Positions 5,830-59,886 of a stretch of DNA of 64,000 bases are shown piece after piece. This DNA is from an uncultured Ktedonobacterales bacterium (GTDB taxonomy: Bacteria > Chloroflexota > DTOL01 > DAOUCN01), in NCBI GenBank assembly GCA_964402955.1, contig CAYOEZ010000001.1, positions 35,027 through 99,026 on the forward strand. Reading direction: 5' to 3'. Position numbers and translations under genes: made by a program. The notes beneath the pieces are model-generated. The model was not told where the DNA came from. It searched no databases and was given only the letters and a program-made list of their open reading frames with translations. Position 1 is the stretch's first letter; each line of letters begins with the position of its first letter.

Positions 5830-6638
5830 CATTGCTAACCGGGCAGCAACTATACGATCTGACCGGCAAAGTAGCGCTGGTGACCGGCGGTGCGCGCACG
5901 CTGGGCTATGACATGGCGCTTGCCCTGGCCGAAGCCGGGGCCGATGTCGCCGTCACCAGCCGCACGCTGGAGCACGCTCAGGTCTCGGCGCAGAAGCTGT
6001 CTGAGGCAACGGGGCGCAAGGCCGTTGGCTATGCCTGCGACGTGCGCTCTGAAGCATCGGTCATGACCATGGTCGATGCTGTTCTGGCTGCTTTCGGCAA
6101 GATCGACATCCTGGTCAACAACGCCGGCAATGTCGCCAGCACCGCCAGCAACAAGCCGATCGAAAACCGGCCGCTCGAAGAATGGGAAAACACCGTGGCG
6201 ACGAACATGACAGGATCGTTTCTCTGCACCAAGCATGTCGTTGCCAAAGCCATGAAGCCGGCGCTCAGCGGCGTCATCATCAACATCGGTTCGGTGGCGG
6301 GCATGGGCGGCAAGGATCACCGCGTCTACCGCGGCACTGAGATGGGCGGTGTGACGCTCGATTATGCCGCGGCCAAGGGCGGGGTGATCAACATGACACG
6401 TGAGGAGGCCTGCTGGCTGGCGCAGTACAACATCCGCGTCAACTGTATCAGCCCGGGCGGCTTCAGGCGCAACCAACCCGAGCCGTTTCCTGAGCAGTAT
6501 AACTATCTTGTCCCGATGGGCCGCATGGGCCAGGGCGGCAAAGAGATGAAAGGCCCCGTGCTCTTCCTTGCCTCTGAGGCGTCATCGTACGTCACGGGCG
6601 TCAACTTGCCTGTTGACGGAGGTATGATGGCATGGTAA
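5826..6638 (+). CDS. SDR-family oxidoreductase
   Basis: The ATG at 5826 overlaps the udg stop (ATGA). Rossmann motif VTGGARTLG and catalytic YAAAKGG (YxxxK) are present. The upstream 5' part of track ORF 5163-6638 is out-of-frame read-through of the udg gene. Confidence 0.85.
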   Translation: MTLLTGQQLYDLTGKVALVTGGARTLGYDMALALAEAGADVAVTSRTLEHAQVSAQKLSEATGRKAVGYACDVRSEASVMTMVDAVLAAFGKIDILVNNAGNVASTASNKPIENRPLEEWENTVATNMTGSFLCTKHVVAKAMKPALSGVIINIGSVAGMGGKDHRVYRGTEMGGVTLDYAAAKGGVINMTREEACWLAQYNIRVNCISPGGFRRNQPEPFPEQYNYLVPMGRMGQGGKEMKGPVLFLASEASSYVTGVNLPVDGGMMAW

Positions 6639-13105: not shown

Positions 13106-13831
13106 TCATCTCCCCAGATAGTCTTTGATGGCTCGCTCCAGACCGCGCGCGTCGTTCCAGTCCTGGCGCGTCACGATGCGCCCGTCCATCCCGATCAGAA
13201 ACGCGTTGTTTGGCAGGCGGCCATAGGTACACCAGAGCGGGTTGTCCATCTCGTCCACGAGCACGGGCATCGTGATCTTTGCTTCCGCAATCGTCTTGGC
13301 GGCGACGGCCACCCTTTCCTCGTAGAGCCGGGCTTGGGTAACAGGCGTGCCCCTGGCGTCGCGGCTGAACTGGGCCGGGTTCTGCTCGATTGGGTGCGCT
13401 TCTTTAGTGTAGATGGTAATGAAGGAAACCATATCGCTGTATCTCTGATAGAGGTCGTTGTTGCCAGCACACTGCTGGCGGAAGGGCGGTCAAGTAAATG
13501 AACCAAAGATCATGATCACCGGCTTCTCAGCCAGCAACGTCGAGAGCGTCCATGCCTTGCCCTTCGTGTCCTTGAGCGTGAAGTCGACGGCCAGTTGCCC
13601 GGGCGTCAGCGGCCGCGTGGCAAATGACTGAAACTGGTCGCAGCGGCGCGCCAGAGTGCTGGACGGCTCCAGTCGTGGCGGCGCCGGCGTCGGCGTGAAC
13701 GTGACCGTTGGCGTCAGCGCTGCTGTGGGCGTTGCCGCCGGCGTGGGGGCCGTGGGCGCGGCCGATCGGCAGGCCGGCAGCATGGCCAGTGCAAGAAGGA
13801 GAAGACAGGACGCCAGTCGTCGTCGCGTCAT
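13106..13831 (-). CDS. deiodinase-like thioredoxin-fold lipoprotein, probable selenoprotein (in-frame UGA at 13490-13492)
   Basis: Track ORFs 13490-13831 and 13106-13432 share one frame and are separated only by a TGA. Read-through gives FGSFT-U-PPFRQQC...ITIYTKEAHP, which is the deiodinase family active-site motif. The N-terminus is a lipoprotein signal (LALAMLPAC) followed by a Thr/Pro linker. Confidence 0.75.
13463..13479 (-). promoter_or_regulatory. candidate bacterial SECIS hairpin
   Basis: The minus strand reads UGA, then 10 nt (CCGCCCUUCC), then GCCAGCA-GUG-UGCUGGC. This is a perfect 7-bp stem with a 3-nt loop that begins with G. Confidence 0.65.
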
Positions 13832-32090: not shown

Positions 32091-32117
32091 TCAAGTAACA
32101 TTCGGAGGCGAGATACG

Positions 32118-35571: not shown

Positions 35572-36936
35572 ATGAACGTAATCGGCTCTTACACCCAGAA
35601 GATGGCCGCCTTCGCGGCCGGCTACCGCTACGAAGACCTCCCTGCGGAGGCCGTCGCTTTGGCGCGCAAGATAGTTCTCGATACTATCGGCGCTATCCTC
35701 CTTGGATCTCGGCCTGACTACAAGTCGGTTTGGGTTCTGGGCGACCTGGCTCGTGAGGAGGGGGGACCAGCCCAGTGCACCGTTTTCGGGCGTGACTTCA
35801 AGACGCCGCTCCTGGCTGCCAGCCTCGCCAACGGCACCATGGGTTACTCCGCCGATGCCGAGGGTGCCGGCGCGGCCCGCATGCATGCGGCCGCCGTCTT
35901 TGTTCCCACGGTGCTCACCGTGGGCGAGTACACCCATGCCTCCGGCAAGGAGATGATTGCGGCCCTCGCTCTGGCCTACGACGTGGCCTGCCGTATCTCC
36001 GACGCGGCCGATTCAGGTGTCCCTTACGTCCATTCCTTCCACCCTTCTGCCGTCTTTGGTCACTTCGGCGCCGCCGCGGGCGCGGGGTACCTCTTCAAGC
36101 TGGAAGAGATGCAATGGGTCAATGCGCTGGGCCTGGCGGGCATCAACGCTACCGGCATGATTGCCTGGCTGGACGACCCGACTGAGGACTCCCGCGGCTT
36201 CGTCATCGGCGTGGCGGCGCAGAGTGGAACCCGGGCTGCGCTGCTGGCTAAGAAGGGAATGGGCGGCCCGGTCCGCATCCTGGACGACACCAAGTACACG
36301 ATCTACGACGCCTACTCAGACGCGATGCACCTGGAAAAGTTGACGGAAGGGATGGGCGCCAGATTCCGCATCCTGGAGGCGGTGGACTTCAAGCTCTATC
36401 CCTGCTGCGGCGACATCCACAGCGGCCTCGACGCCCTCCTGTCCATCCGTGAGCAACATCACCTCCAGGCAGACGACATTGTCAGCGTCACCCATTGGGT
36501 CAGGCCCTTGCGCCATAAGGTGATAGATAACAACCCCCTCAAGTCTCACAACGCGCAATACATCATGGCGGTGGCGGCCGTGAATGGGGGAATAGATCCC
36601 AACGACATCCTGACGGATCGGAGGTCCGATGCGCGCATTGCGCAACTGTACTCCCAGACCCGCCTGCTCCCTGAGCCGCTTCTGAGTGAGATTCCCTACG
36701 GCGCGCCGGCCATCGTAGAAGTGCGGACGCGCGATGGGCGAACCTTCAAGGAGCGGGTCATCGATCGCAAGGGGACTGCTCAGAATCCCTTCACGGACGA
36801 GGAGTTGCGAGAGAAGTTCCTGCGCTGGGCAACGACGCGCATCAGTGAGGCCCAGGCTCGGCGCATCATCGAATTGACCGGTTGTCTGGAGGAACTGGAG
36901 GATGTGGGCGAGTTGGTGGGTTTGCTCGCTGCCTGA
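35572..36936 (+). CDS. MmgE/PrpD-family protein (paralog 2)
   Basis: 454 aa with the same conserved blocks as paralog 1 (NGTMGYSADAEG, HPSAVFG, YPCCGDIHSG). Confidence 0.9.
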   Translation: MNVIGSYTQKMAAFAAGYRYEDLPAEAVALARKIVLDTIGAILLGSRPDYKSVWVLGDLAREEGGPAQCTVFGRDFKTPLLAASLANGTMGYSADAEGAGAARMHAAAVFVPTVLTVGEYTHASGKEMIAALALAYDVACRISDAADSGVPYVHSFHPSAVFGHFGAAAGAGYLFKLEEMQWVNALGLAGINATGMIAWLDDPTEDSRGFVIGVAAQSGTRAALLAKKGMGGPVRILDDTKYTIYDAYSDAMHLEKLTEGMGARFRILEAVDFKLYPCCGDIHSGLDALLSIREQHHLQADDIVSVTHWVRPLRHKVIDNNPLKSHNAQYIMAVAAVNGGIDPNDILTDRRSDARIAQLYSQTRLLPEPLLSEIPYGAPAIVEVRTRDGRTFKERVIDRKGTAQNPFTDEELREKFLRWATTRISEAQARRIIELTGCLEELEDVGELVGLLAA

Positions 36937-40378: not shown

Positions 40379-41536
40379 GTGAACAATCGGGAACGCATGT
40401 TGGCGACCCTGGCGGGGGAGATCCTGGACTACGTCCCGGCCTGGCCCTTTGGCTTCTTCAACGCCGCCACAATTCGCCGCCTGGTGCCGGCCGAGTACCT
40501 GGTGCCCGATCTGGGAACCTGGCCTGAGGACGGCGCCTATGGCTTTGCCGCCCAGACGTCTGCTGAATTGGACAAGATCATCACCTACAACCGGTACATA
40601 GACCGCATCGCTACGGCGGCAGGCCGCGGCGCTAACCGCGCCTTTGGCCACGCCGGGCCGGGCGAGTTCAACGCGCGGGTAATAGAGAAGAACGATGACT
40701 ACCGCGTCATTCAATATGAGTCCGGCGCCAGGGCCAAGATCCAGTGGTCTCCCCACTTCTATCACCTCGTCGACATGCCGGTAAAGACGATGGAGGACGC
40801 CGAGGCGATCTGCCTGCCTGATCCGGAGCAACCGGAGCGCTGGATAGGTTACCGCCAGGAGGTGGCATACCTGAAGCAGCGCGGCGAGTACGTGATCGGC
40901 CACGTCAACGGCTTCTTTTCTGGCTGTCACTACTTCCTGCGCGATTACCAGGACCTGATGACGGACCTGATCCTGCAGCCCGAGTTGGTGGCGACTCTAG
41001 TGAAGAAGCTTGGTGACTGGAACCTGCGGGCAGCGCGTATGATGCTGGAGGCGGGGGTAGACTGCATCGGCTTCTGCGACGATCTGGGCTCCGGGGACAA
41101 CCTGCTTTTCCGACCTGAACTCTACCGGCGCTTCTTCTTCCCCTGGCACCGCGCCTTGTGCGATCTGGTCCATTCGTATGGCAAGCATGTGCACCTGCAT
41201 AGCCACGGCAACATAAACAGGATCCTGGATCTGGTCGTGGACAGCGGCATCGACATGCTTAACCCGCTGGACCCCGGCGAAGGGATGGATCTGGCGGCTA
41301 TCAAGGAGCATTACGGCCACCGCCTGACTTTGGTAGGGGGGATGGACGGGTACATCTTCAATCAGGAACTGGACGAGATAGAGGCCCGGCTGCGCCAGTC
41401 AGTGCAGGTAGGCGCCAGAGGCGGGCGCTTCATCCTGATGGACGCCAGCGGCATTCCGGATAGCATCAGCCGGGAGAAATTTGAGGCCTTCCTGGAGATC
41501 AGCCGGCGGGTGCGCGGGCAAACGCCGCGCCGCTAG
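40379..41536 (+). CDS. URO-D/MtaA-like family protein
   Basis: Contains HLHSHGNI, LVGGMDGYIF..ELDEIEARLRQSV and GGRFILMDASGI. GTG start, with an alternative ATG at 40397. Confidence 0.8.
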   Translation: MNNRERMLATLAGEILDYVPAWPFGFFNAATIRRLVPAEYLVPDLGTWPEDGAYGFAAQTSAELDKIITYNRYIDRIATAAGRGANRAFGHAGPGEFNARVIEKNDDYRVIQYESGARAKIQWSPHFYHLVDMPVKTMEDAEAICLPDPEQPERWIGYRQEVAYLKQRGEYVIGHVNGFFSGCHYFLRDYQDLMTDLILQPELVATLVKKLGDWNLRAARMMLEAGVDCIGFCDDLGSGDNLLFRPELYRRFFFPWHRALCDLVHSYGKHVHLHSHGNINRILDLVVDSGIDMLNPLDPGEGMDLAAIKEHYGHRLTLVGGMDGYIFNQELDEIEARLRQSVQVGARGGRFILMDASGIPDSISREKFEAFLEISRRVRGQTPRR

Positions 41537-41675: not shown

Positions 41676-43061
41676 ATGGCAACACACGACCGTGCCCAGG
41701 CTGGCGACAGTTCCAAGATCATCGAGCAACTGAGTGCATTCGTCGCCCATACCAGGCTCTCGGACTTGCCGCCGGCAGTGGTGACCCAGGCAGAGTGCAT
41801 TCTGCTGGACACGCTGGGGGCCATTCTTTCCGCCACAGCTCCGCGCTACGCGACAGGCCGCATCCTGCGCGAGTTCATTCTAGGGCAGGGCGGCACAGCG
41901 GAATGCACGCTCATCGGCACGTCCCATCGCACCTCATGTATCAATGCCGCTCTCTACAATGGGACGCTCGGCTACTCGTCCGACATCGAGAGCCATCATC
42001 CCGGCGCGATCATGCACGCCGCGGCCATCGTGGTGCCAAGCTCGTTAGCCATTGCTGAGCGCAACCACTGCAGCGGCGCAGAACTGCTGACCTCCATTAT
42101 CTTGGGCGTAGACATGGCCTGCCGCGTCAGCAATGCCATCGGCCCCACCACGCTCTATTATCGCGGGCAGCACCCCACCTGTGTGGGCGGCGGCTTCGGC
42201 TCAGCCACAGCTGCGGCCTACCTGCTGCACCTCGACGCGCTTGCCATTCGTCGCGTTTGGGGGCTGACGGGTACCCAGGCATCTGGCCTGCTGGCGTGGG
42301 AGACGGATGACACTGAGAACTCGCGACCTTTCAACCCTGGTATCGCCACCCGCAACGGCACGATGGCGGCAGTCCTGGCATCATACGGATTCGGCGGGCC
42401 GCCAGATATCTTTGAAGGCAAGTTCAACATCATGGCCGCTTTCGGCGATCCGCCCGACCTGAGCCAACTGACCGATGGCTTGGGTCAGCGTTTCCTGATC
42501 AACGAACTGGCCATCAAGCGTTATGCCTGCTGCGCCTTCCTTCATCCAGGACTCGACGGCCTCGAGGAGATCATGGCTGAGAACAGCCTGACGGCTGGCG
42601 AGATCACGGCCATGCGCTTGCGCTTCCCGCGCTCGGGCGTCAAGCTGATTGACAATAACCCGGTACGCTCGCACTGGCGCCAATATATCCTACCCATCTA
42701 TGCCCTGGAACGGAAAGTCGTCATTGACGATATCCTGACCGATCGGCGCGGCGAGCCTGCCATTGCTGCCTTGAGCAGCAAAGTGCAGGTGCCCGCTGAT
42801 GAAGGTTTGGACTCCGAGTTTCCGGCGCGCTACACCTCTATCATGGAGGTGGAGGCACGGGGCACAACGTTCAGCAAGAAAGTCGTCTATGCCAAGGGTT
42901 GCCCCGAGAACCCCCTGAGCGGTGAAGAGCTGGAGACGAAGTTCCGCGCCCTGGCGGGCAGCGTGGCCAGCAGCCAGCGCGTTGACCAGATCATCGAGAC
43001 AGTACATAGCATCAAGGCTGCTCCGACCACCGATGGACTGATGGCGCTATTGCGGGGGTGA
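41676..43061 (+). CDS. MmgE/PrpD-family protein (paralog 3)
   Basis: 461 aa. Contains LDTLGAI, NGTLGYSSDIES, HPTCVGG and YACCAFLHPG. Confidence 0.9.
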   Translation: MATHDRAQAGDSSKIIEQLSAFVAHTRLSDLPPAVVTQAECILLDTLGAILSATAPRYATGRILREFILGQGGTAECTLIGTSHRTSCINAALYNGTLGYSSDIESHHPGAIMHAAAIVVPSSLAIAERNHCSGAELLTSIILGVDMACRVSNAIGPTTLYYRGQHPTCVGGGFGSATAAAYLLHLDALAIRRVWGLTGTQASGLLAWETDDTENSRPFNPGIATRNGTMAAVLASYGFGGPPDIFEGKFNIMAAFGDPPDLSQLTDGLGQRFLINELAIKRYACCAFLHPGLDGLEEIMAENSLTAGEITAMRLRFPRSGVKLIDNNPVRSHWRQYILPIYALERKVVIDDILTDRRGEPAIAALSSKVQVPADEGLDSEFPARYTSIMEVEARGTTFSKKVVYAKGCPENPLSGEELETKFRALAGSVASSQRVDQIIETVHSIKAAPTTDGLMALLRG

Positions 43062-44457: not shown

Positions 44458-46182
44458 ATGAACGGAGCTGAGGTGCTTGTACATGAGCTTCTTCTATATG
44501 ACACAGACGTTGTTTTCGGTTTGCCGGGTGACACAAGCATCGACCTGTACGATGCCTTGCGAGCTACCGGTGGCCGGATTAAGCATATTGTAGCCCGCGA
44601 CGAACGGTCAGCCGCCTTTATGGCCGACGTCTACGCCCGCCTGACTGGAAAACCTGGCATCTGTGAAGGCCCAAGCGGCGGCGGCGCAACCTACATGCTG
44701 CCGGGCATTGTGGAAGCGCACGGATCATCGGTTGCCTTGATTGCCCTGACCACCGACAATCCGATCGACTATGAGGCGCAGGGCGCACTGACCGATCTCA
44801 ACCAGCCAGCGATCTTTTCCTCGGTCACCAAATGGGCAACACGTGTCCCGCGCGCCGACATGCTGCCCCGCTTTCTGCGCCGTGCATTTCGCCTGGCGAC
44901 GAGCGGCCGGCCAGGCGCCGTCCATCTCGCCTTGCCCAAGGATGTTCTGGGGCAGGACGTGTCTGAAGCGGCCGCCATCTACGCTGAAGAGGCCTGCGCG
45001 AGGTGGCCGGCTTACCGCACGCGGCCGGCGGCAGCGGATGTGGAGCGCCTGGCTCGCGGTTTGCTGGCCGCTGAGCGCCCAGTCATCATCGCAGGCGGCG
45101 GCGCCGTGTCCTCAGGCGCCTTCGCCGAGCTGCTCACCGTAGCGGAGCTGCTCAATGCGCCGGTTGCCACCACCATCAATGGAAAAGGCGCCATCGCCGA
45201 AACCCACTGCCTAAGTCTGGGCGTCATCGGCGGCAACGGCGGCCGGCCCTACGCCAATCAAGTAGTGCAAGAGGCAGATCTGGTTCTCTTCGTGGGCACG
45301 AAGGTCAGCTATGTGGACACCGACAACTGGCGGGCGCCCTCGCGGGCCAAGCCTCCGGTTGTCCTGCAGATCGATGTGGATCCTACCGAGATCGGCAATA
45401 ACTACCGGCTGACGGACGGCCTGTGCGGGGACGCGCAGTTGACTCTAGCTGACCTGGCGACCGCGCTGCGCCAGCTTCTGCCGGCCCCCATTGGCCGTGA
45501 CGCCTTGCTGGCCCGCATTGCCAGCCTGAAGGCGACGTGGCGCGCCGAGATTGCTGCTCTAGCCGCCCGCGCGTGCCAGCCGATCATGCCCCAGTGCGTG
45601 GTAGCAGAGTTGCAAGAGGCTCTGCCCGCTGAGACAGTTCTGGTCTGCGATCCGGGCACGCCGACGCCCTTCATGGCTGCGGAGTATGAGCTGCGTTGCC
45701 CGGGCCGCTGGATGATCTCGCCCCGGGCCCAGGGAGGTCTTGGCTATGCGATTCCCGGTGTAGTAGGAGCGCGTCTGGCCAGACCAGCCCAGCTTGTGGT
45801 GGGACTGTGCGGCGACGGCTCGTTTGCTATGTCGGCTGGCGACCTGGTAACCATCGCTCGCGTCGGCGGGCCAACCGTCCTCATCCTGTTCAACAATCGC
45901 AGCTATGGCTGGATCAAGGCGCTGCAGAAGCTCCAGGGTGGCGGACGGTACTTCTCGGTCGATCTGGACGAGCCGATAGACTATGTGCAGGTGGCGGCTG
46001 GCTTTGGCCTGCGCGGCAAGCGCGTGACATCCTCGCAAGAGATCGGCCCGGCCTTGCACGAGGCTCTTAGCTACGGCGGGCCCTACCTCATCGAGATTCC
46101 CACGGCTGGCGAGCATGATGTCATTCCTCCCGTCGCAGCGTGGCAGCGGGCGGTGGAAGGCGGCGTGGTCAACGGTGAATGA
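44458..46182 (+). CDS. thiamine pyrophosphate-dependent enzyme (acetolactate synthase large subunit/IolD-like family)
   Basis: N-terminal PYR domain GAEVLVHELL...VFGLPGD and TPP motif GDGSFAMSAGDL...ILFNNRSYG. Confidence 0.9.
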   Translation: MNGAEVLVHELLLYDTDVVFGLPGDTSIDLYDALRATGGRIKHIVARDERSAAFMADVYARLTGKPGICEGPSGGGATYMLPGIVEAHGSSVALIALTTDNPIDYEAQGALTDLNQPAIFSSVTKWATRVPRADMLPRFLRRAFRLATSGRPGAVHLALPKDVLGQDVSEAAAIYAEEACARWPAYRTRPAAADVERLARGLLAAERPVIIAGGGAVSSGAFAELLTVAELLNAPVATTINGKGAIAETHCLSLGVIGGNGGRPYANQVVQEADLVLFVGTKVSYVDTDNWRAPSRAKPPVVLQIDVDPTEIGNNYRLTDGLCGDAQLTLADLATALRQLLPAPIGRDALLARIASLKATWRAEIAALAARACQPIMPQCVVAELQEALPAETVLVCDPGTPTPFMAAEYELRCPGRWMISPRAQGGLGYAIPGVVGARLARPAQLVVGLCGDGSFAMSAGDLVTIARVGGPTVLILFNNRSYGWIKALQKLQGGGRYFSVDLDEPIDYVQVAAGFGLRGKRVTSSQEIGPALHEALSYGGPYLIEIPTAGEHDVIPPVAAWQRAVEGGVVNGE

Positions 46183-46210
46183 GGTGCAAGCAACATCGGG
46201 GGGTGCAGCA

Positions 46211-47491
46211 GTGCCGTCAGTAGACGCTGTCATGTTGGGCGCTGGCGATCGGGGATACTACTGCCAGGGCATGTACGCCATTCGCTATCCACATCGCCTG
46301 CGCTACGTCGCTGTCGCAGAGCCGGACCAGGCCCTGCGCGACCGATTTGGAGAGGTCCACGGCATCGCGCCAGGGCACCGCTACGCTTCCTGGGAGGATC
46401 TGCTCTGTGGCGGGCAACTGGCGCCTATTCTGGTAAACACGACCCCTGACCGGGCGCACATGGCATCGAGCGTGGCCGCACTGAGCGCCGGCTATCACGT
46501 GCTCCTCGAAAAGCCCATGGCTACATCGGCGGATGACTGCTTGCGCATTGTGAACGCCGCCGAGCGCGCCGGGCGCATCCTGCAAGTCTTTCATGGCATG
46601 CGCTACGCGCCGCTCTTCCGTCTTGTCCACGAGGCTATCGCAGCGGGCCGGCTGGGCCGCCTGATCAGCTATGCTCATTTCGAGAATGTTGCCTACTTCC
46701 ACATGGCCCATGCCTACGTGCGCGGCAACTGGCGGCGCTCTGACACGTCGGGACCGATGATCTTGACCAAGTGCTGCCATGATCTCGACCTGATCGTATG
46801 GTACACTGGCCAGCGCTGCCGGCGCGTCTCCTCGTTTGGATCACTACAGCACTACCGCCGTGAAAACGCCCCTCCGGGCTCTCCTGATCGGTGCACCGAC
46901 GGCTGCCCAATAGAAGAGACCTGTCCGTATTATGCTCCCCGCTTCTACCTGAGTAGTGAGGGCGTGGCGCCCAAGATGACACGGGCGATTGCCACCGATC
47001 TCAGCATAGAGGGCATTCTGAAGGCTCTGCGCGACGGCCCCTATGGGCGCTGTGTCTACCGCTGCGACAACGATGTGGTGGACAACCAGGTGGTCATGAT
47101 GGACATGGAGGACGGCACCAGCGCCAGCCTGACTATACACGGCTTCAGCTATGATGGTGGGCGAACAATCCGCATGCAGGGCACAGAGGGGACGCTGTTG
47201 ATGGAAGCTCTGCGGCGTGAGGTCGAGGTCTACGATCATCTGCGCGGCCGCTGCGATACTCTGCGTCCTGGTAAGACCACCGGAGGACATGGTGGCGGCG
47301 ATGACGGGCTAATGTCAGCTTTCCTGCACTCGGTAGAGGCAGGCCAGCAGGACGTGATGACGTCGGCGAGGGCCTCGCTGGAGAGCCATCTGATGGCTTT
47401 CGCCGCAGAAGAGTCGCGCCTGACAGGCAACTCGATTGACATGGATAGCTTCCGGCAGGCAGCCGAGCAACGAGCCGCAAGGAAGCTGTGA
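46211..47491 (+). CDS. Gfo/Idh/MocA-family oxidoreductase
   Basis: A GTG at 46211 follows a GGGGGG run. Contains VMLGAGDRGYY and EKP (LLEKPMA). The track start at 46115 overlaps the TPP gene by 68 nt. Confidence 0.8.
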   Translation: MPSVDAVMLGAGDRGYYCQGMYAIRYPHRLRYVAVAEPDQALRDRFGEVHGIAPGHRYASWEDLLCGGQLAPILVNTTPDRAHMASSVAALSAGYHVLLEKPMATSADDCLRIVNAAERAGRILQVFHGMRYAPLFRLVHEAIAAGRLGRLISYAHFENVAYFHMAHAYVRGNWRRSDTSGPMILTKCCHDLDLIVWYTGQRCRRVSSFGSLQHYRRENAPPGSPDRCTDGCPIEETCPYYAPRFYLSSEGVAPKMTRAIATDLSIEGILKALRDGPYGRCVYRCDNDVVDNQVVMMDMEDGTSASLTIHGFSYDGGRTIRMQGTEGTLLMEALRREVEVYDHLRGRCDTLRPGKTTGGHGGGDDGLMSAFLHSVEAGQQDVMTSARASLESHLMAFAAEESRLTGNSIDMDSFRQAAEQRAARKL

Positions 47492-53082: not shown

Positions 53083-53157
53083 CGTTTCCGGCCAGGACGT
53101 GCACACAGAGAGCAGTGATGGCCGCCATCTGATCGGCAGCGACATGCACATATCATG

Positions 53158-53867
53158 CTAATGCTGGGCCACAAAGGCTAGGACGCGCGATTCAAAAGCG
53201 TCCCCATCCAGCCGGGGTATACCATGAGCGGCGTTGGGAATCAGCCACAGTGCGGCCCCTGGAATGGCGCGGGCAATCCCCTCGGCATGGTCAGGGCCAA
53301 CGAACTCATCGTGCATGCCCTGCGTAACCAGGGTTGGGCAGTGAATGCGGCCCAGGTCAGGCCGTACAGCGAGATCGGCGCCGGCCAGCCAGCGGTTGAA
53401 CCAGGCGATGGCGCGCTTGTAGTTGCGCGAGCCCATGCGCTCCTCATGCTCGCGCAGGCTGACCATGTGCGCATATATGCCGCGCAGCATGGATTCTTCA
53501 ACATGGGAGTGAGCGGCCCACAAGACAAGCAAGCGAACACGCTCCGGTCCCTCTATTGCCATCAGCAGGGCAACCGAGCCGCCATCGCTTGACCCCAGGA
53601 CGTGGGCAGGCTCAATACCAAGAGCTTCCAGGACCGCGATCTGATCCAGGGCATCCTGGCGCAGGAAGTCCGGCGCGAAGTCCGGCCGGTCGCTGGAGCG
53701 GCCGTAACCGTACCGATCGGTGGCTATGACCCGCTAGTGTGGGGCGTAGACAGGCATGGCGCTGGCCCAATCGGCGGCGGATCCGCCGCCATGAAGCAGC
53801 AACGAAACGTCGCCCTGCCTTGTTCCTCGTAGTACATGTCATAGTCACGTATATGCACAAATGGCAT
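53158..53867 (-). pseudogene. alpha/beta hydrolase pseudogene (paralog of 30173-30898)
   Basis: Begins MPFVHIRDYDMYYEEQG (compare MPFVRVHDYDMYYEDQG in the intact paralog) after AAGGAG. There is a frameshift near 53811-53820 and an in-frame TAG at 53734-53736 (APH-stop-RVIATDRYGYGRS). The GSSDGG elbow is retained. Confidence 0.8.
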
Positions 53868-54250
53868 GAAGGAACTCCTTCCAGCGTATCCGCGGCGCTT
53901 CAGTCACGTGTTGGGCTGCCTTCTCTCTGACCCGACGCGCCAGGGCGCGCTAACGCAGCCCAACCCGGTCGGTGTTAGAGAACGCCTGGCCACACTCAAG
54001 TTCCCGAGTGGGGACTTCCCGTTGCTGACTCGCTTACAGCGCGCCGCGCGGCGTCGGGCAGCCTCACCAGGTTGAGTGTCTTGCAGGTCAAGTATAGCAC
54101 AAACGGCGACCCTATAGGGTCGCCAACAGGGGAGCGCCACCGATTTGGGGCATGCTCATAACTCAGGAAGATGGTCTGACACACGGCCAGTGGATTCAGC
54201 GACGCAGACAGTGGATGACTCGTCGGCATGGACCTGCTGTGTCCTCAACG

Positions 54251-54422
54251 TGTCATGTGCCCACTGCAAAAAGGTCATCAGACTTCGCCTGGTGGGGAGA
54301 CGGCATCAAAACGACGTGCCTTGGATGCCATTTCGGCCCTAATGAGGCTATTTCGGGTCACTAAATGGGGCAAATGCTCAGTTCGATCGACCATTTGACC
54401 TTCTTGCAGTGGGCACGTGTCA
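54251..54422. repeat. 172-bp inverted-repeat (MITE-like) element
   Basis: Arms tgtcatgtgcccactgcaaaaaggtca (54251-54277) and tgaccttcttgcagtgggcacgtgtca (54396-54422) are complementary at 24 of 27 positions. The element lies in non-coding DNA. Confidence 0.5.
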
Positions 54423-54539
54423 TTGGCATGAGCCCTTGCTGGATGTATACTGCCGGACGAGTTGCCGGCTACCCTGCCGCTGATGGTCTTCAACTCTGAC
54501 ATCTAAAAAAAGGCGGGGACGCAAAGAGGTAGACAAGCC

Positions 54540-55440
54540 ATGTCTAGCCAGTTACGCCGCCTGGTGCAGCCTGAGGATCTCCTTGCTATTAAGACCGTTT
54601 CTGACGTCCAGATCTCCCCCAATGGCCGGCGCCTGGCCTATGTGCTTTCCGAAGTCGACACACAGAAAGACAACTACCATACCACCATCTGGGTTGTGCC
54701 GTCGGACGGCAGCGATCCGGTGCAGTTCACGCGCGGGCCCAAACACGATCTGGCGCCTCGCTGGTCGCCTGACGGTTCGGTCCTGGCCTTTCTGTCTGAC
54801 CGGGACGGCGACGCTCCGCAATTGTACCTTCTGCCCGCATACGGAGGCGAGGGCCATAAGATAACGTCTTTGACCCTGGGCGCTGGCCCAGCCGTCTGGT
54901 CCCCCGATGGACAGAAGATCCTCTTCGCTGCTTCGGTCTTTACCGAATCTCCTCCCACCGACAAAGATGCCCGGGCGCGCTGGAATCTCCGCCCGCGTCA
55001 GGTGACCCGCGCCCACTACAAGGACGATGGGCGCGGCTACACGCTTGACAAAGGGACACACCTGTTCATCGTGGCAGCCGGGGCGGTGAGGCACAACAGG
55101 TGACAGATGGTGACGCCAACGATGCAGCACCCGCCTGGTCTGCAGACGGTAGTCGTGTCGCCTTCAGTCGCACTCGCTCCGGCATAGCGGACTACAACCT
55201 GTCGGACATCTGGGTTGCTGGTGCTGACGGGAGCAACGCCCGCCAGATCACCAGCGAGACCGGGCGCGCCATTTTCCCCAGTTGGTCGCCGGACGGCTCT
55301 GCACTGGCATGTTTCGGCACCGACGAGCAGGAACCAGAAATTGGCGATCCACACCGAGAGTCTGGATAGCGCCCGTGGACAGGGGTACGCCTCACTGTGT
55401 GACAGCGAACTACGACAGGGCTGCCCTCGCCTGGGCCGGC
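54540..55440 (+). pseudogene. peptidase S9-type beta-propeller (TolB/DPP-like) pseudogene; catalytic domain missing
   Basis: Repeated propeller motifs are present (ISPNGRRLAYV, RWSPDGSVLAF, VWSPDGQKILF, AWSADGSRVAF, SWSPDGSALAC). The reading frame switches near 55075-55090 (G-run) and again near 55340-55360. No alpha/beta hydrolase domain follows. Confidence 0.7.
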
Positions 55441-55457
55441 CTGCACCCGATTTTCCC

Positions 55458-56057
55458 TTGTGGCAGCTCGACGGCAAATCAACAAGCCTCAGCCAGGTGT
55501 GGTCTCAACACTCCTACACAATTGAGGAGTTCGGGAGCTTCACCTGACCATATTGTGGGATGGCGGCGCCATCCATGAACGCCATTGCCGATCGCTATAG
55601 TGACCGGAATGTCGGCGCTGTTTTCATCTATACGCACGAGGCTCATCCCGGGGAGAACTACCCGCATCTGACCTCAATGGCACAGAAGTTGCGCCATGCC
55701 AGCGCATTGCGCGACATCCTTGGCGTAACGCGCCCCATTCTAGTGGACGCGCTCGATGGAGCGTGTCACCGAGCATACGGCTCAATGCCCAACATGACCT
55801 GGGTCTTCACGAACAACGGCGTCCCCGTCTACAAGTCAGACTGGACAGATGCTGCCAGTGTGGACAACGCGATCGAGTATCTCTTGAAGGTGACAGAGCG
55901 GAGACGGTCTGGAGAAGTGCTAGCTCCGTTTCATGTAGAGAGGCTTGATTTCCGCAACCACAGCCGGGCCGCTTTCTACAAGCGGCTGGAAGTGAAAGGG
56001 CCAAAGGCAGTGCGAGAGTTCCAGGCGGCATTTCCAGGCCCCAGAAGGGAGACCTGA
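55458..56057 (+). CDS. deiodinase-like thioredoxin-fold protein, probable selenoprotein (in-frame UGA at 55545-55547); 5' boundary unresolved
   Basis: The frame is open from 55215. Read-through gives APDFPLWQLDGKSTSLSQVW...EEFGSFT-U-PYCGMAAPSMNAIADRYSD...VFIYTHEAHP, paralogous to 13106-13831. No ATG or GTG with an RBS lies near the start of the homology region, so the TTG at 55458 is a placeholder. Confidence 0.55.
55558..55574 (+). promoter_or_regulatory. candidate bacterial SECIS hairpin
   Basis: Reads UGA, then 10 nt (CCAUAUUGUG), then GGAUGGC-GGC-GCCAUCC. This is a perfect 7-bp stem with a 3-nt G-initial loop. Spacing and size are identical to the hairpin at 13463-13479. Confidence 0.6.
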
Positions 56058-56150
56058 GTCTCTTGCTCTCGACGCAAGGTAAGACATGACCGCTACGTCG
56101 CATCCATAGAAGTGAAGGGCTCGACGATCATAGACGAAAGCAGGACAGAT

Positions 56151-56655
56151 ATGGCCAGCAAGGAAGCGAACGATCAGCACTTCGACTTGGTTGTGATAGG
56201 TAGCGGCTCAGCCGGTGATAGCGCGGCGTGGATTGCCCGTTCGTATGGACGGTCCGCTACCGTCATTGAGTGGGAAGGACAAGGTAGGGGGAGACTGCCC
56301 CAACTACGCTTGTGTGCCGACGAAGGCGCTCTTGCGCTCGGCGAAGGTCTACTCCCTTCTGAAACGGGCCGAAGAATTCGGTCTGCGTGCTGATGCCATC
56401 GGGTTTGACTGGGAGAAAATCGTCGCCCGAGAAGAGTGGATCATCCGCCACACCGGTTCGGCACAGGCCGAGAAAATGTATCAGGAAAACGGCATTGTGC
56501 TCTTGAGAGGTACGGCCGCATTTGAGGATGCCCATCACATCCGTGTCAACCGCCAGGTTCTGAGCGCCGACAGGATTATGATCGCCACAGGCTCAAAGCC
56601 CGGCATGCCCCGTATTGAAGGTATCGATACCGTCCAGCCGATCACCCATATATAA
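56151..56655 (+). pseudogene. pyridine nucleotide-disulfide oxidoreductase (dihydrolipoyl dehydrogenase/mercuric reductase-like) N-terminal fragment, frameshifted
   Basis: FAD motif FDLVVIGSGSAGD in one frame and the redox-active disulfide block GGDCPNYACVPTKALL in the next. The frameshift lies near 56268-56285. The fragment stops after about 165 aa, with no NAD or dimerisation domains. Confidence 0.7.
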
Positions 56656-57178
56656 ATGAACGAGCGTGTGATCGCCGCCATACGGCCGATAGCCTCGGCG
56701 GCCCAGGCGTACGCCAGAGTGATCACCACCACGAGGGCAGTCCCACCTTCACCAATCGGTAAGGCCGAGACTCTACGCACCAAGGGCGAAAAGATAGACA
56801 CGCCAATGATGACGGCTCCTGCCATGTAGAGGACAATCCACCCTCCATTCAATGCGTATTGCCCCAAGCCCGTGGCCGCTTCCATGACCGAAGGCCGCCA
56901 GAAGGACCGAGAGCAGGAGAACAACCAGGATATCATCGCTTGACTCAGGCGAACCATGCAGTTCCGCCCGCGGCAAGCACACCTGCAAGGAAGAAAAGGC
57001 TTGCACTGCTGCGTAGACCGAAACGCAGGAAAATGTGGGTGGGCACAACCGCACGATGGAGGAGTGACGGCAGCCAGTAGTCAGCGAGGGGATAGCCAAT
57101 AGACATGGGGGCCAATGGATTTGTCGCTGTGATCGTCAGCATGGAGGGTGCGCTGATGGTAGCCAGAGCGGCGAACAC
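56656..57178 (-). pseudogene. cation/proton antiporter-like membrane protein fragment with frameshifts
   Basis: Three minus-strand frames carry consecutive hydrophobic segments (IFLRFGLRSSASLFFLAGV; DDILVVLLLSVLLAAFGHGSGHGLG; GGWIVLYMAGAVIIGVSIFSP). The pattern resembles the N-terminal half of CPA-type antiporters. Family assignment is weak. Confidence 0.35.
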
Positions 57179-57330
57179 CGCCTCCCACTGAGGTAGGATC
57201 AGCCTAATGGTTGTCGGTGGTATATACCTGGTGTTAACCTTCGTTTACCTGCACATTCACCGCCCCGTGCTACAATTCAGTATCGCGTTCATGGTGAGAT
57301 CACGCACTACCCATCCTCAGCGGAGGCGTC

Positions 57331-59886
57331 ATGAGACAGCAGAGACGGATGTTCTATGTCGTGGCACTGCTTGGGGCGGCGCTTGCCCTTGTGTTGGGCG
57401 CCGCTTCTTTAACCCAAGCCGGCCAGGACCGCCCCAGCGCGCAGCTTGCGTCTGCTCCCTATGCAGGTGTCTACGTCGGCCGTGACTATCGTAACATCGA
57501 CCCCACCATCTACCCGGCTGTTGGTGGACAGTATATGTTCTCGTGGCGAGAGCTTGAGCCGCAGGAAGGGAACTACCAGTGGCAACTCATCGAACACTGG
57601 GTGCAGGCTGAGGCGCTGCAATCAGGTAAGCGTGCGGCATTTGCCCTCACGACATATAACGGGCGCATCGAAGGCGGCATTCAGGTTCCTGCCTGGGTTT
57701 ACGATCCCGGGCAGGGAGGCAACTCCCAGGCAGTCATCAGTTGCAGTGGGATACTGATTCCGCGCTACTGGAACCAGTACTATCTCACCAAGTACCAGAA
57801 CTTTGTACGGGCCCTGGGTGCACGGTTCAACGCCGATCCTCGCGTGACCTGGGTACAAATCGGCTCCGGGCTCTACGGCGAGACGCAGCCAGCCGACGAT
57901 CAGGATGACCAGTGTGTCAAGAACGCCTTGGCTGCCGACATCGGCTCCTCCGAACCTGCTATCCAAAGCAGCCAGTGGGTCACAACCGTCAACACCATAA
58001 CCGACTTCTACGTCTCGGCATTTCCCAGCACGACGCTCTTTCTCCAGTTTGCGCCGAGCTTCATCGATCCGTGCGAGCGCAAACGCGTCACCGACTATGC
58101 AGGGGCGCGCGCTGTGGGTCTTTTCAACGCTGGCCTCCTGGCTGACTTCAACAATGCCGTCTTCCCTCCTATGTCGAGGACAGCCGGCTGCGGGGCGTAT
58201 GAGCCCTATTTGACCTGGATGGGCCGCGTGCCGTTCGGGTGGGAATCCTATCGTTATTTGCTGCCCACGGCTACCCACGTCTATTGGGCGGTTTTCAACG
58301 CTCTGGACAAACATGCCGACTACATCAACTTCGAGCACGACTTGTTCCACGACAGCAGCGGCAATCCCATCCCAGACAACTTCCCCTACTTTGAGTTTGC
58401 TAATCGCTACCTGGGGCGAACAATTACTGATACACCGAGCGTGTGGGTTGCTCTGCGCGACCATCGGCAGGAAGCGCCTGGTAATCCCTACTGGCCGCAA
58501 TGGGGCAATTACAGCTACTGGCTCTACCAGGATGACAACGTGGCAGGTGGACGCACGGTTACGGAGACGAACGATTCCGCCGTCTATCTGCCCACCTACA
58601 ATCCTACCCTTCCTCCTGGCAAGGAGGGGTGGGTGACACGGCGAACCGACCAGGCTAGCGGCAATCCATCCATGTGGTTCAAGATCGATGATGGCTATAT
58701 CAACGGCAACAGCCCGTCAGCCGGGGTTCAGGTGACGTACTGGGACCATGGCACGGACACCTGGGCGCTCCTCTATGACTCAACGAGGGGGGAACAGGCC
58801 GCTGTGCCGCAAGGATCAAGCCAGCCCTGGGTTCAGAAGCAGAACAGCAACACCTGGAAGGTTGCATCGTTTGTCCTGAGCGATGGGCGACTGGCCAATG
58901 GACTGGCCGGCGGGAGTGACTTCCGCATTGACAGCCGCAATGACGGCGACGAATGGGTGCACTTTGTCAAGGTTATCAAGGGTGGTTTCCCCACACCGAC
59001 CCCCACACCGGTGTCGTATGACCAGGCCGTGAACGCCGGCGCATCGCTGCCGTACACAGATAGTCTGGGGATTGTTTGGGAGCGTGATCGGACGTACCTG
59101 GCCGGAAGCTGGGGCAACACCGGCGGGCGTGTTTACGTGACAGCTGCGCCGATCACTGGAACAGACGATGATGTTCTCTACCAGAGCCAACGTTTCCAAA
59201 TGCCGTCCTATCAGTTTGATGTGCCGCCTGGCGTGTACCGGGTTGATCTACGCTTTGCCGAAACGTTCTATGGTGTGCCCAATGACCGAGTCTTCAATGT
59301 CTACCTGGAGGGCCAGCCTGTTTTGATGAACTTCGACATCCTGGTTGCCGCGGGAGGGTGGTATACAGCGCTAGACCGCTCCTTCGATGTCACGGTGACA
59401 GACGGACGGCTTGACGTTACATTTGTTGATAAGAGACAGACTGCGACCATTGCTGGTCTGCGCGTGCGCGGGCTGTCCTCTACAGTCACAGCGACACCGA
59501 CATCCTCAGCGACTATGTTGTCAACCGCCACGCCATCGCAGACAGCGACTGCAACGCCTAGTGTGACGGCAACGGCATCAGGCACGCCAACGCAGACTGC
59601 AACAGTGACGCCTACCGCGAGTCCGAGCCCGGCAGCGACCGCTACCGCGACGCCAACAGCGACTACCTCGCCGACCATGACGGAAATACCTTCTGAATCG
59701 GCAACGCCGACCAGCACAGCAACGACAACTGGCGTATCAACGACCACGGCAACTGCCTCGCCAGAGGGAACCAACACATCGACGGCAACGGCTTCTACTC
59801 CAGCGAAGACAGCGACACCAACACCTACACCCACAGCGACCTGGATTACAATGTGGCTACCAATCATAGTCTGGGGGCATCAGTAA
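57331..59886 (+). CDS. secreted glycoside-hydrolase-like protein with malectin domain and Thr/Pro-rich C-terminal tail
   Basis: Signal peptide MFYVVALLGAALALVLGAASLTQAG. The N-terminal TIM-barrel-like region (FSWRELEPQEGNYQW) is of GH42/DUF4832 style. The malectin block is YTDSLGIVWERDRTYLAGSWG...DDDVLYQSQRF...YRVDLRFAE...RVFNVYLEG. About 130 aa of Thr/Ala/Pro tail follow, ending in a short hydrophobic segment. Confidence 0.8.
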   Translation: MRQQRRMFYVVALLGAALALVLGAASLTQAGQDRPSAQLASAPYAGVYVGRDYRNIDPTIYPAVGGQYMFSWRELEPQEGNYQWQLIEHWVQAEALQSGKRAAFALTTYNGRIEGGIQVPAWVYDPGQGGNSQAVISCSGILIPRYWNQYYLTKYQNFVRALGARFNADPRVTWVQIGSGLYGETQPADDQDDQCVKNALAADIGSSEPAIQSSQWVTTVNTITDFYVSAFPSTTLFLQFAPSFIDPCERKRVTDYAGARAVGLFNAGLLADFNNAVFPPMSRTAGCGAYEPYLTWMGRVPFGWESYRYLLPTATHVYWAVFNALDKHADYINFEHDLFHDSSGNPIPDNFPYFEFANRYLGRTITDTPSVWVALRDHRQEAPGNPYWPQWGNYSYWLYQDDNVAGGRTVTETNDSAVYLPTYNPTLPPGKEGWVTRRTDQASGNPSMWFKIDDGYINGNSPSAGVQVTYWDHGTDTWALLYDSTRGEQAAVPQGSSQPWVQKQNSNTWKVASFVLSDGRLANGLAGGSDFRIDSRNDGDEWVHFVKVIKGGFPTPTPTPVSYDQAVNAGASLPYTDSLGIVWERDRTYLAGSWGNTGGRVYVTAAPITGTDDDVLYQSQRFQMPSYQFDVPPGVYRVDLRFAETFYGVPNDRVFNVYLEGQPVLMNFDILVAAGGWYTALDRSFDVTVTDGRLDVTFVDKRQTATIAGLRVRGLSSTVTATPTSSATMLSTATPSQTATATPSVTATASGTPTQTATVTPTASPSPAATATATPTATTSPTMTEIPSESATPTSTATTTGVSTTTATASPEGTNTSTATASTPAKTATPTPTPTATWITMWLPIIVWGHQ

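What the first reader, a model, noticed from the sequence alone, without database searches (positions are those of the whole stretch)
55215..56057. Second UGA-containing paralog (FGSFT-U-PYC) with an identically spaced hairpin, embedded in a pseudogene field and lacking a clear start
The frame is open from 55215 to 56057 except for the TGA at 55545-55547. Read-through gives RPAPDFPLWQLDGKSTSLSQVW...EEFGSFT-U-PYCGMAAPSMNAIADRYSDRNVGAVFIYTHEAHP.... This shares FGSFTUP, RYSD, IYTxEAHP and P(V/I)LVD blocks with the 13106-13831 product. Here the Sec sits in a U-x-x-C arrangement, a thioredoxin-like redox pair. After the UGA come exactly 10 nt and then GGAUGGC-GGC-GCCAUCC (55558-55574). This is the same 7-3-7 hairpin size and spacing as in the first gene, but with an unrelated sequence, which argues for selection on structure. 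The oddity is the 5' end: homology starts about 55440, immediately after a decayed S9-propeller pseudogene in other frames. No ATG or GTG with an RBS is available there. The gene is therefore either translated from an unusual start or fusion, or is a recently orphaned copy.
Basis: partly seen in the sequence, partly recalled or inferred. Interest (0 to 1): 0.75.

Follow-up and report, generated by a model that had tools for sequence, protein, structure and literature searches.

The report
Damaged copy of a selenoprotein gene
This is a copy of a widespread bacterial selenocysteine-containing redox enzyme gene, with its UGA codon and recoding hairpin intact, but it has lost the start of its coding region, sits among broken genes, and is probably a recently inactivated, otherwise ordinary selenoprotein gene.

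Summary
The frame 55215-56057 is open apart from the TGA at 55545-55547, and a 7-3-7 hairpin (55558-55574) follows after 10 nt.

The TGA is a real selenocysteine codon by descent. All 80 related loci fetched from reference genomes carry TGA at this codon, and a few relatives carry Cys.

The hairpin is under RNA-level selection:
- RNAalifold predicts it independently.
- 99% of cells pair, and 3 of 7 pairs show compensatory changes.
- Four-fold sites inside it are nearly frozen (0-0.8 bit, against 1.4-1.8 elsewhere).

The product is a thioredoxin-fold oxidoreductase with a U-P-Y-C centre. It resembles ResA/TlpA and, more distantly, the deiodinases. Selenoproteins of this kind are already catalogued.

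The odd 5' end is damage, not an unusual start. Orthologues have a conserved 69-residue segment before Sec. Here, alignable homology begins only at 55422, at codon 29. A lone AACTACGAC (NYD) remnant lies in another frame, implying a net 40-nt loss.

The flanking genes are truncated or frameshifted, while the rest of the window is intact. The remaining 206 codons show no extra damage, so the inactivation is recent, or a shortened protein is still made.

Sec machinery could not be checked in the source genome.

The parts
55545..55547 (+). In-frame TGA, the selenocysteine codon of the FGSFT-U-PYC active site
   Evidence: TGA is at the aligned codon in all 80 loci L002-L081 and in the closest relative, L086+L001. 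Cys occupies this position in P0002 and P0007.
55558..55574 (+). SECIS-like hairpin: 7-bp stem (55558-55564 with 55568-55574) and 3-nt loop GGC (55565-55567), 10 nt after the TGA
   Evidence: RNAalifold gives the same hairpin on 74 sequences. 99% of cells pair, 3 of 7 pairs have compensatory changes, and 0 of 500 shuffles reach the covariation score. Four-fold sites inside the hairpin are nearly invariant. The first loop base is G in 74 of 74 sequences.
55422..56057 (+). Retained coding region of the selenoprotein gene, from orthologue codon 29 to the stop at 56055-56057
   Evidence: Ungapped 79% nucleotide identity to the merged closest relative over window 55423-56041. The protein is 67-76% identical to 80 genome loci. 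Conserved positions are not degraded.
55408..55416 (+). AACTACGAC (Asn-Tyr-Asp), a probable remnant of the conserved YNYD motif. It lies in a different frame and 40 nt too close to the TGA.
   Evidence: It is the only AAYTAYGAY on the + strand of the window. In orthologues the Tyr of YNYD lies 60 codons before Sec in most loci, whereas here the equivalent distance is 140 nt. Five nt (55417-55421) replace 45 nt of the relative.
55341..55343 (+). In-frame TTG with AGGA 8 nt upstream. This is the only plausible substitute start, and it is hypothetical.
   Evidence: Read directly from the sequence. No comparative support. It would add 27 unrelated residues before the point where homology begins.
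54540..55369 (+). Upstream pseudogene: N-terminal beta-propeller of an S9-type peptidase in two frames (54540-55103 and 55100-55369). The catalytic domain is absent.
   Evidence: PD40 and DPPIV_N matches in both ORFs. The frame change lies near 55080-55100. In the closest relative the upstream neighbour is a short-chain dehydrogenase instead.
56152..56648 (+). Downstream pseudogene: a flavoprotein disulfide reductase (Pyr_redox_2) with a 4-nt insertion at 56271-56274, cut off at 56648
   Evidence: Pfam matches in two frames. The blastn alignment to L001 shows the 4-nt gap, and homology ends at L001 position 1141 of a gene that runs to 2074. No continuation appears in any frame.
53158..53562 (-). 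Fragment of an alpha/beta-hydrolase gene (C-terminal part only), marking the left side of the roughly 4-kb decay island
   Evidence: The Abhydrolase_1 match covers only profile positions 192-239 of 245. No ORF of 150 aa or more lies between 53151 and 54540.
13106..13831 (-). The related, apparently intact gene: a deiodinase-family lipoprotein-like protein, FGSFT-U-PPF, with TGA at 13490-13492 and a hairpin at 13463-13479
   Evidence: T4_deiodinase 52.8 bits (cut-off 27), spanning the TGA. NF038285 scores 119.6 bits. The hairpin appears in the MFE fold at the same offset. It is 35% identical to the present protein.

Best explanation
The locus is a 5'-damaged, probably recently inactivated copy of a gene for a cytoplasmic thioredoxin-fold oxidoreductase. 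The gene family normally contains selenocysteine.

In intact family members, the mRNA hairpin that begins 11 nt after the UGA is expected to recruit SelB carrying Sec-tRNA(Sec), so that UGA is read as selenocysteine. This step is inferred from the known bacterial mechanism. The product then has a U-P-Y-C centre at the start of the first helix. That centre is expected to cycle between a selenol/thiol form and a selenenylsulfide form (inferred).

In this window the UGA, the hairpin and 206 codons are preserved. The first 28 or so codons, the native start and the upstream region have been lost or scrambled, with a net 40-nt loss and a frame change. The genes on both sides are also broken. The full-length protein therefore cannot be made from its native start.
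For: Shown for the Sec codon:
- TGA is at this codon in 80 of 80 related loci from reference genomes and in the closest relative.
- Homologues in protein databases are split into ORFs of about 69 and about 155-160 residues at exactly this point.
- Cys forms exist.

Shown for the hairpin:
- It is predicted independently from the alignment.
- 99% of cells pair, against 29-60% for slid controls.
- Three pairs have double changes: AU to CG seven times, GC to CG twice, GC to AU once.
- Synonymous-site entropy is 0-0.8 bit in the hairpin against 1.4-1.8 elsewhere.

Shown for the fold:
- Redoxin and AhpC-TSA matches are above cut-off.
- The model has pLDDT 82, and ResA, TlpA and DIO3 are the best structural matches.

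Shown for the damage:
- Orthologues have a start codon with a Shine-Dalgarno sequence 7-10 codons before YNYD, and 60 codons from that Tyr to Sec.
- Homology with the closest relative starts at its codon 29, at window 55423.
- Upstream there is only an out-of-frame NYD remnant.
- The neighbouring genes are frameshifted and truncated.
- Positions 1-53000 carry long intact ORFs.
Against: - The retained 206 codons show no excess damage. There are 2 deviations at columns that are at least 95% conserved (median 1, maximum 4 among orthologues), and 7 window-derived against 5 relative-derived amino-acid changes. Selection may therefore still act on the gene.
- The missing N-terminal segment is modelled with low confidence (pLDDT 48-65) and lies outside the thioredoxin core. 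A shortened protein might still fold.
- An in-frame TTG with an AGGA upstream exists at 55341.
- The join of L086 and L001 rests on a 28-nt overlap within one metagenome sample.
- Sec machinery was not seen, because only 64 kb of the genome is available.
- No expression data are available.
Confidence: 0.65

Rival explanations
1. The gene is still functional. Translation starts at a substitute codon, such as TTG 55341, and yields a Sec-containing thioredoxin-fold protein with a new, shorter N-terminus.
For: - There is no excess of damaging substitutions in the remaining 206 codons.
- The UGA and hairpin are perfectly preserved.
- AGGA lies 8 nt before TTG 55341.
- The lost segment is outside the confidently modelled core.
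- A sigma-70-like promoter at 54423-54451 could drive read-through transcription.
Against: - The lost segment (YNYDxFxPxKFxxWLNF) is strongly conserved in sequence and length in the orthologues examined.
- The substitute start has no comparative support, and its match could be chance.
- Both neighbours are decayed, including the syntenic flavoprotein partner.
- The product carries V-to-E and N-to-K changes never seen in 73 orthologues.
Confidence: 0.22
2. The lesions are assembly or sequencing artefacts, and the real genome carries an intact gene with the normal 69-codon N-terminal segment.
For: The S9 frameshift lies in a G run. A homopolymer frameshift is also seen in the Logan contig of the relative. 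Short palindromes such as the hairpin break assemblies.
Against: A 40-nt loss, a 4-nt insertion and two truncations of about a kilobase or more are not typical read errors. The other 53 kb of the window has long uninterrupted ORFs.
Confidence: 0.08
3. The UGA is not read as selenocysteine in this organism. Either it terminates translation, leaving the ATG-55560 ORF as a separate small protein, or it is read through as another amino acid.
For: Database gene callers report only the downstream ORF (P0001). Sec machinery was not demonstrated for the source genome. Homologues with Trp, Leu or Phe at this site exist.
Against: Conservation runs across the codon, and the active-site motif would be split. 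The hairpin shows covariation and frozen synonymous sites at the position expected for a bacterial SECIS. A second TGA-containing gene of a known selenoprotein family lies in the same window with intact flanks.
Confidence: 0.05

Closest known systems
Bacterial Prx-like / Redoxin-family / thiol-disulfide-isomerase-like UxxC selenoproteins, catalogued from the Sargasso Sea and GOS metagenomes and in a 2026 review (PMC1088965, PMC2398784, PMC13188914)
   Same: Thioredoxin fold. Sec is the first residue of a UxxC motif. A bacterial SECIS hairpin with a small G-containing apical loop follows directly after the UGA. Rare Cys homologues exist. Pfam Redoxin (PF08534) and AhpC-TSA (PF00578) matches.
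   Different: - I could not establish which catalogued subfamily this is, if any.
- No NCBIfam model reaches its cut-off.
- The family has its own conserved 33-residue N-terminal extension and a CHRAYGSMPNM block.
- Sec is used in every one of the 80 genome loci examined.
- The few Sec-less relatives looked at include Leu, Phe and Trp forms as well as Cys.
Iodothyronine deiodinase family, including bacterial deiodinase-like selenoproteins (PF00837, NF038285)
   Same: FGS-x-T-U active-site context. There is a weak profile similarity. The mouse DIO3 and DIO2 catalytic cores are among the structural matches, with the highest query TM-score (0.58). The window's other TGA gene is a clear member.
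   Different: PF00837 scores 18.2 bits against a cut-off of 27, and NF038285 scores 57 against 250. The motif is U-P-Y-C rather than U-P-P-F.
ResA / TlpA / DsbE thiol-disulfide oxidoreductases
   Same: These are the best structural matches: Foldseek E about 3e-9, target TM-score 0.83, rmsd 2.3-2.5 A. The redox motif sits in the CxxC position at the start of helix 1.
   Different: Sequence identity is only 16-18%. Those proteins are extracytoplasmic and Cys-based. This family has no signal peptide, has Sec, and has extra N- and C-terminal helical segments.
Escherichia coli fdhF SECIS (the minimal 17-nt upper stem-loop placed 11 nt after the UGA; from my own knowledge of Liu et al. 1998 and Zinoni et al. 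1990, not re-read here)
   Same: A 17-nt hairpin beginning 11 nt after the UGA, inside the coding sequence, with G in the apical loop.
   Different: The stem is a perfect 7 bp with a 3-nt loop and no bulged U. The sequence is unrelated. Binding by SelB is untested.

Membership tests
Bacterial selenoprotein gene (Sec-UGA plus bSECIS) | The in-frame UGA aligns with Sec or Cys in homologues, and homology continues across it | tested here: met
   80 of 80 loci carry TGA. Cys occurs in P0002 and P0007. tblastn matches span the codon.
Bacterial selenoprotein gene (Sec-UGA plus bSECIS) | A stem-loop immediately downstream of the UGA with a small apical loop containing G | tested here: met
   A 7-bp stem with loop G(G/U)C sits 17 nt from the UGA to the loop. 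The first loop base, G, is invariant in 74 sequences. The feature is as stated in PMC1088965.
Bacterial selenoprotein gene (Sec-UGA plus bSECIS) | The structure is conserved through compensatory change | tested here: met
   3 of 7 pairs have changes on both sides (10 cells). 0 of 500 shuffles reach the covariation score, and slid controls give 0-1 such pairs. Caveat: the hairpin overlaps conserved codons, so protein constraint contributes. The frozen four-fold sites argue for RNA-level selection.
Bacterial selenoprotein gene (Sec-UGA plus bSECIS) | selA, selB, selC and selD are present in the same genome | not testable with these tools
   Only 64 kb is available. The window has no tRNA, no Rfam hit and no SelB- or SelA-like motif, and no sel family appears among about 30 ORFs scanned. 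The source genome was not found in the collections.
Bacterial selenoprotein gene (Sec-UGA plus bSECIS) | An intact, translatable reading frame with a start codon | tested here: not met
   The first 28 or so codons and the native start are missing or out of frame.
Thioredoxin-fold thiol-disulfide oxidoreductase (Redoxin / AhpC-TSA / TlpA-ResA-like) | Profile match above the curated cut-off | tested here: met
   PF08534 scores 33.7 bits (cut-off 26.6) and PF00578 scores 28.4 (cut-off 26).
Thioredoxin-fold thiol-disulfide oxidoreductase (Redoxin / AhpC-TSA / TlpA-ResA-like) | A C/U-x-x-C motif between strand beta-1 and the N-terminus of helix alpha-1 of a thioredoxin fold | tested here: met
   In the model of the Cys homologue P0002, the strand is 60-66, C70-P-Y-C73 follows, and the helix is 71-90. 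ResA/TlpA are the top structural hits.
Iodothyronine deiodinase family (PF00837 / NF038285) | Profile match above the curated cut-off | tested here: not met
   PF00837 scores 18.2 bits against 27. NF038285 scores 57.4 against 250.
Iodothyronine deiodinase family (PF00837 / NF038285) | Structural similarity to the deiodinase catalytic core | tested here: inconclusive
   4tr3 gives E = 5e-8 and TMq 0.58, but rmsd is 4.6 A. It ranks below many ResA/TlpA chains by E-value.
Peroxiredoxin | Peroxidatic Cys/Sec in a T-x-x-C/U motif | tested here: not met
   The motif here is T-U-P-Y-C, with Sec directly after Thr and in a UxxC arrangement.

The most novel reading that the evidence does not exclude
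The family may be an as yet uncatalogued, almost obligately Sec-dependent cytoplasmic oxidoreductase. Its SECIS is locked into the conserved G-M-A-A-P-S-M peptide. When Sec is lost, the residue at that site is sometimes replaced by Leu, Phe or Trp rather than by Cys, which would hint at a chemistry or a non-catalytic role that Cys does not rescue. On this reading, the window copy is a still-functional variant with a remodelled N-terminus.
Probability: 0.12. Interest if true: 0.5.

Novelty: new member of a known kind. Interest (0 to 1): 0.3.

Why it matters
Practical value is mainly for annotation. Public gene calls split this family into two anonymous ORFs of about 69 and about 155-160 residues, across more than 1800 database clusters. 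One rule would repair them: TGA after FGSFT, followed by the GGGAUGGCG(G/U)CGCCAUCC hairpin.

The family is also a clean natural example of a coding-region SECIS. Its base pairs show up as amino-acid covariation: Met with Ser against Leu with Ala or Val.

The window copy illustrates how a selenoprotein gene decays. It was hit by a 5' deletion while the UGA and SECIS remain untouched. None of this changes current understanding of Sec decoding.

Tried and rejected
- Rfam at gathering threshold on the whole window, and at E up to 10 on 55450-55700, found nothing relevant.
- ARAGORN found no tRNA-Sec in the window or in 60 related loci.
- The source genome could not be retrieved. P0001 and a 988-aa window protein are not on record, and the genome-collection scan returned no locus above 76% identity. 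The sel-gene test could therefore not be run.
- Single-sequence folding does not single out the hairpin.
- Gene neighbourhood of the orthologues is only weakly conserved: DUF3179 in 23 of 73 loci, a glutaredoxin-thioredoxin-reductase fusion in 18, and an ECF sigma factor in 16. It gives only a soft hint of a redox partner.
- Local alignment of 55300-55421 with the relative's 5' region is not significant (222 of 500 shuffles score as high). The NYD remnant rests on its uniqueness and position alone.
- Sequence search of the PDB gave only marginal hits.
- I considered an S9-selenoprotein fusion. I rejected it because the S9 fragments are in other frames and end in a stop at 55367-55369, and because the closest relative has a different upstream gene.
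- I ran no further search on identifying the taxon.
Full report
**1. What is in the sequence**

Translation of 55215-56057 (+) is open except for the TGA at 55545-55547. It reads ...RPAPDFPLWQLDGKSTSLSQVWSQHSYTIEEFGSFT*PYCGMAAPSMNAIADRYSDRNVGAVFIYTHEAHPGENYPHL... up to the stop at 56055-56057.

Ten nucleotides after the TGA lies GGATGGC-GGC-GCCATCC (55558-55574). The minus-strand gene at 13106-13831 has FGSFT*PPF, with its TGA at 13490-13492. Its hairpin, GCCAGCA-GUG-UGCUGGC (13463-13479), sits at the same offset. The two products are 35% identical over 161 residues (E = 5e-21).

Two cautions apply:
- In this 61% G+C window, more than 50 TGAs have over 70 open codons on each side.
- Folding the 60 nt alone gives another minimum-energy structure, with z = -0.53.

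The local features alone would not be convincing.

**2. Comparative evidence for a selenocysteine codon**

A protein search returned 1807 relatives. Most are 154-160 residues long and begin at the Met codons just after the TGA. Only a few are full length. A search with the N-terminal part returned 235 ORFs. Of the 120 listed, 85 are exactly 69 residues long, and nearly all end in FGSFT. Gene callers therefore split the family at this codon everywhere.

In 80 loci fetched from species-representative genomes, the aligned codon is TGA in all 80. These are mostly Chloroflexota (Anaerolineae, Ardenticatenaceae, Caldilineae), with some labelled Armatimonadota, Deinococcus, Rubrobacter and Planctomycetota. 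Cys occupies the position in P0002 and P0007.

**3. The hairpin is a conserved RNA structure**

The test used an ungapped alignment of 74 sequences, running from the TGA to +60.
- RNAalifold predicts exactly the 7-3-7 hairpin at columns 14-20 and 24-30.
- 99.0% of cells form standard pairs, against 29-60% when the 3' arm is slid by 1-3 columns.
- Three of seven pairs carry changes on both sides: A-U to C-G in seven sequences, G-C to C-G in two, and G-C to A-U in one.
- Another 19 cells are G-U wobble changes.
- None of 500 shuffles reaches the observed covariation score.

At the protein level this shows up as GMAAPSM changing to GLAAP(A/V)M.

The stem lies in conserved codons, so I also measured four-fold degenerate sites. 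Inside the hairpin the entropy is 0.19, 0.0, 0.37 and 0.80 bit. At 4-fold sites elsewhere in the gene it is mostly 1.4-1.8 bit.

The first loop base is G in all 74 sequences. [quoted passage not shown]

The geometry is a 17-nt hairpin starting 11 nt after the UGA.

**4. What the protein is**

Pfam Redoxin (33.7 bits) and AhpC-TSA (28.4 bits) are above their cut-offs. T4_deiodinase (18.2 bits) and NCBIfam NF038285, 'deiodinase family protein' (57 bits against a cut-off of 250), are below theirs.

I ran an AlphaFold model of the full-length Cys homologue P0002, with a 61-row alignment (pLDDT 82, pTM 0.75). It shows a thioredoxin fold with strand 60-66, then C70-P-Y-C73, then helix 71-90.

Foldseek against the PDB puts ResA, TlpA and DsbE-type thiol-disulfide oxidoreductases first (E about 3e-9, target TM 0.83). 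Uncharacterised thioredoxin-like proteins 3u5r, 2ywi and 2cvb rank alongside them. The mouse DIO3 and DIO2 cores have the highest query TM-scores, 0.58 and 0.54.

The family is thus a Sec-containing UxxC thiol-disulfide-type oxidoreductase, lying between the ResA/Prx-like and deiodinase-like branches. No signal peptide is evident in the orthologue N-termini, so it is probably cytoplasmic.

The inferred chemistry, not shown here, is nucleophilic attack by the selenolate and resolution by Cys+3 into a selenenylsulfide. A flavoprotein disulfide reductase would then re-reduce it. Such a gene follows directly in this lineage. A glutaredoxin-thioredoxin-reductase fusion is nearby in 18 of 73 orthologous loci.

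**5. The 5' end**

In most of the 72 orthologues with flank, a start codon lies 7-10 codons before a YNYD motif. It is usually ATG, with a Shine-Dalgarno sequence. The Tyr of that motif lies 60 codons before Sec in most loci, and 61 or 65 in six.

The closest relative was rebuilt from two contigs of one metagenome sample. L086 and L001 overlap by 28 nt and break inside the palindromic hairpin. The rebuilt gene has the intact form M-IEEDVLRRYNYDEFVPSKFEQWLNFDASPLLGQPAPDF....

The blastn alignment of that relative with the window is ungapped over 619 nt (79% identity). It begins at the relative's codon 29, which corresponds to window 55423. Upstream of that point no alignment is significant.

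However, the only AAYTAYGAY on the window's + strand sits at 55408-55416. It lies in another frame, 5 nt before the resumption of homology, where the relative has 45 nt. That amounts to a net 40-nt loss with a frame shift.

In the reading frame of the retained part, the only start-type codons are TTG 55215 and TTG 55341, the latter with AGGA 8 nt upstream. No promoter-like site lies nearby. The single match is at 54423-54451, before the S9 fragment.

**6. Context**

The upstream S9-type peptidase is represented only by PD40 propeller fragments in two frames. It has no catalytic domain.

The downstream flavoprotein gene has a 4-nt insertion (56271-56274) relative to L001. It loses homology at 56648, about 930 nt short of the relative's gene end.

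Further left there is only the C-terminal end of an alpha/beta-hydrolase.

By contrast, 1-53000 and 57331-59886 carry long ORFs with ordinary Pfam domains. The decay is therefore local to about 53.1-57.3 kb and is unlikely to reflect general sequence quality. In the closest relative the upstream neighbour is a short-chain dehydrogenase, so the adjacency to S9 is derived.

**7. Is the copy dead?**

The remaining 206 codons look healthy:
- There are two departures at columns that are at least 95% conserved (median 1, maximum 4 among 74 sequences).
- Seven amino-acid changes are assignable to the window lineage, against five for the relative.
- Two of the seven (Val to Glu in TIVEFGS, Asn to Lys in NGPK) are seen in none of 73 orthologues.

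The lost N-terminal segment is conserved in sequence but modelled with low confidence.

My reading is recent inactivation (0.65). The main rival is a still-used, N-terminally shortened protein (0.22). Artefact (0.08) and non-Sec readings (0.05) are minor.

**8. Relation to what is known**

Trx-fold UxxC selenoproteins are already listed from metagenome surveys and in a 2026 review (PMC1088965, PMC2398784, PMC13188914). The listed kinds are Prx-like 1-3, Redoxin family, thiol-disulfide-isomerase-like and deiodinase-like.

I could not determine which entry, if any, corresponds to this family. No NCBIfam model captures it at its cut-off. I therefore class it as a new member of a known kind, and the biology as ordinary for selenoprotein genes.

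**9.

Sense codons other than Cys/Sec do occur in more distant homologues:
- TTA (Leu) in L084.
- TTC (Phe) in L082 and L083.
- TGG (Trp) in L085.

In L084 the two Ala codons spanning the hairpin loop have changed from GCG to GCC, which breaks the closing pair. That is as expected once Sec decoding is lost.

These cases do not touch the main clade, but they are curious because Cys is the usual replacement.

**10. Not settled**

- Sec machinery in the source genome is unknown (untestable here).
- Expression of the locus is unknown.
- The reality of the lesions at read level has not been checked.

Noticed in passing
L084 1320-2042; L082/L083 3001-3735; L085 666-1385: More distant full-length homologues carry Leu (TTA), Phe (TTC) or Trp (TGG) at the Sec position instead of Cys. 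In L084 the two Ala codons spanning the hairpin loop are GCC rather than the otherwise invariant GCG, which breaks the closing pair.
   Followed up: partly
L086 1152-1179 and L001 1-28: Two contigs of the same Logan sample overlap by 28 nt and end inside the palindromic SECIS hairpin. Merged, they give the closest relative with an intact 69-codon N-terminal segment. The palindrome may systematically break short-read assemblies of this family.
   Followed up: partly
window 55542-55544 and the aligned codon in L002-L081: The Thr codon directly before the UGA is ACC in 67 of 74 sequences (0.45 bit at a four-fold site). This suggests a context preference 5' of the Sec codon.
   Followed up: no
window 13106-13831 (-): The other TGA gene is a clear deiodinase-family member (PF00837, 52.8 bits). 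It has an N-terminal lipoprotein-like signal (…LAMLPAC), the FGSFT-U-PPF motif and open flanks. Its conservation among orthologues was not examined.
   Followed up: partly
window 53100-57330: This is a roughly 4-kb island of gene remnants inside an otherwise intact region: a hydrolase fragment, S9 propeller fragments, the selenoprotein remnant and a truncated flavoprotein. The stretches 53600-54540 and 56650-57330 have no recognisable coding content. The cause, whether mobile element or serial deletions, was not determined.
   Followed up: partly
L001 1400-1500: The flavoprotein gene of the closest relative is called as two overlapping genes. The frame changes at a run of nine G. This could be a homopolymer assembly error or a real frameshift.
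   Followed up: partly
window 15766-17127, 35572-36936, 41676-43061; 31017-33275, 40379-41536; 6632-7606, 34380-35480, 46115-47491: The window holds three MmgE/PrpD paralogues, three URO-D-like paralogues and three GFO/IDH/MocA oxidoreductases, interspersed with transporters and glycoside hydrolases. The arrangement looks like repeated catabolic cassettes.
   Followed up: no
L002-L081, within 4 kb of the selenoprotein gene: Recurrent but not universal neighbours are DUF3179 proteins (23 of 73 loci), a glutaredoxin-thioredoxin-reductase fusion (18), an ECF sigma factor (16) with a small Cys-containing protein (17), and a YjeF_N protein (14).
   Followed up: partly
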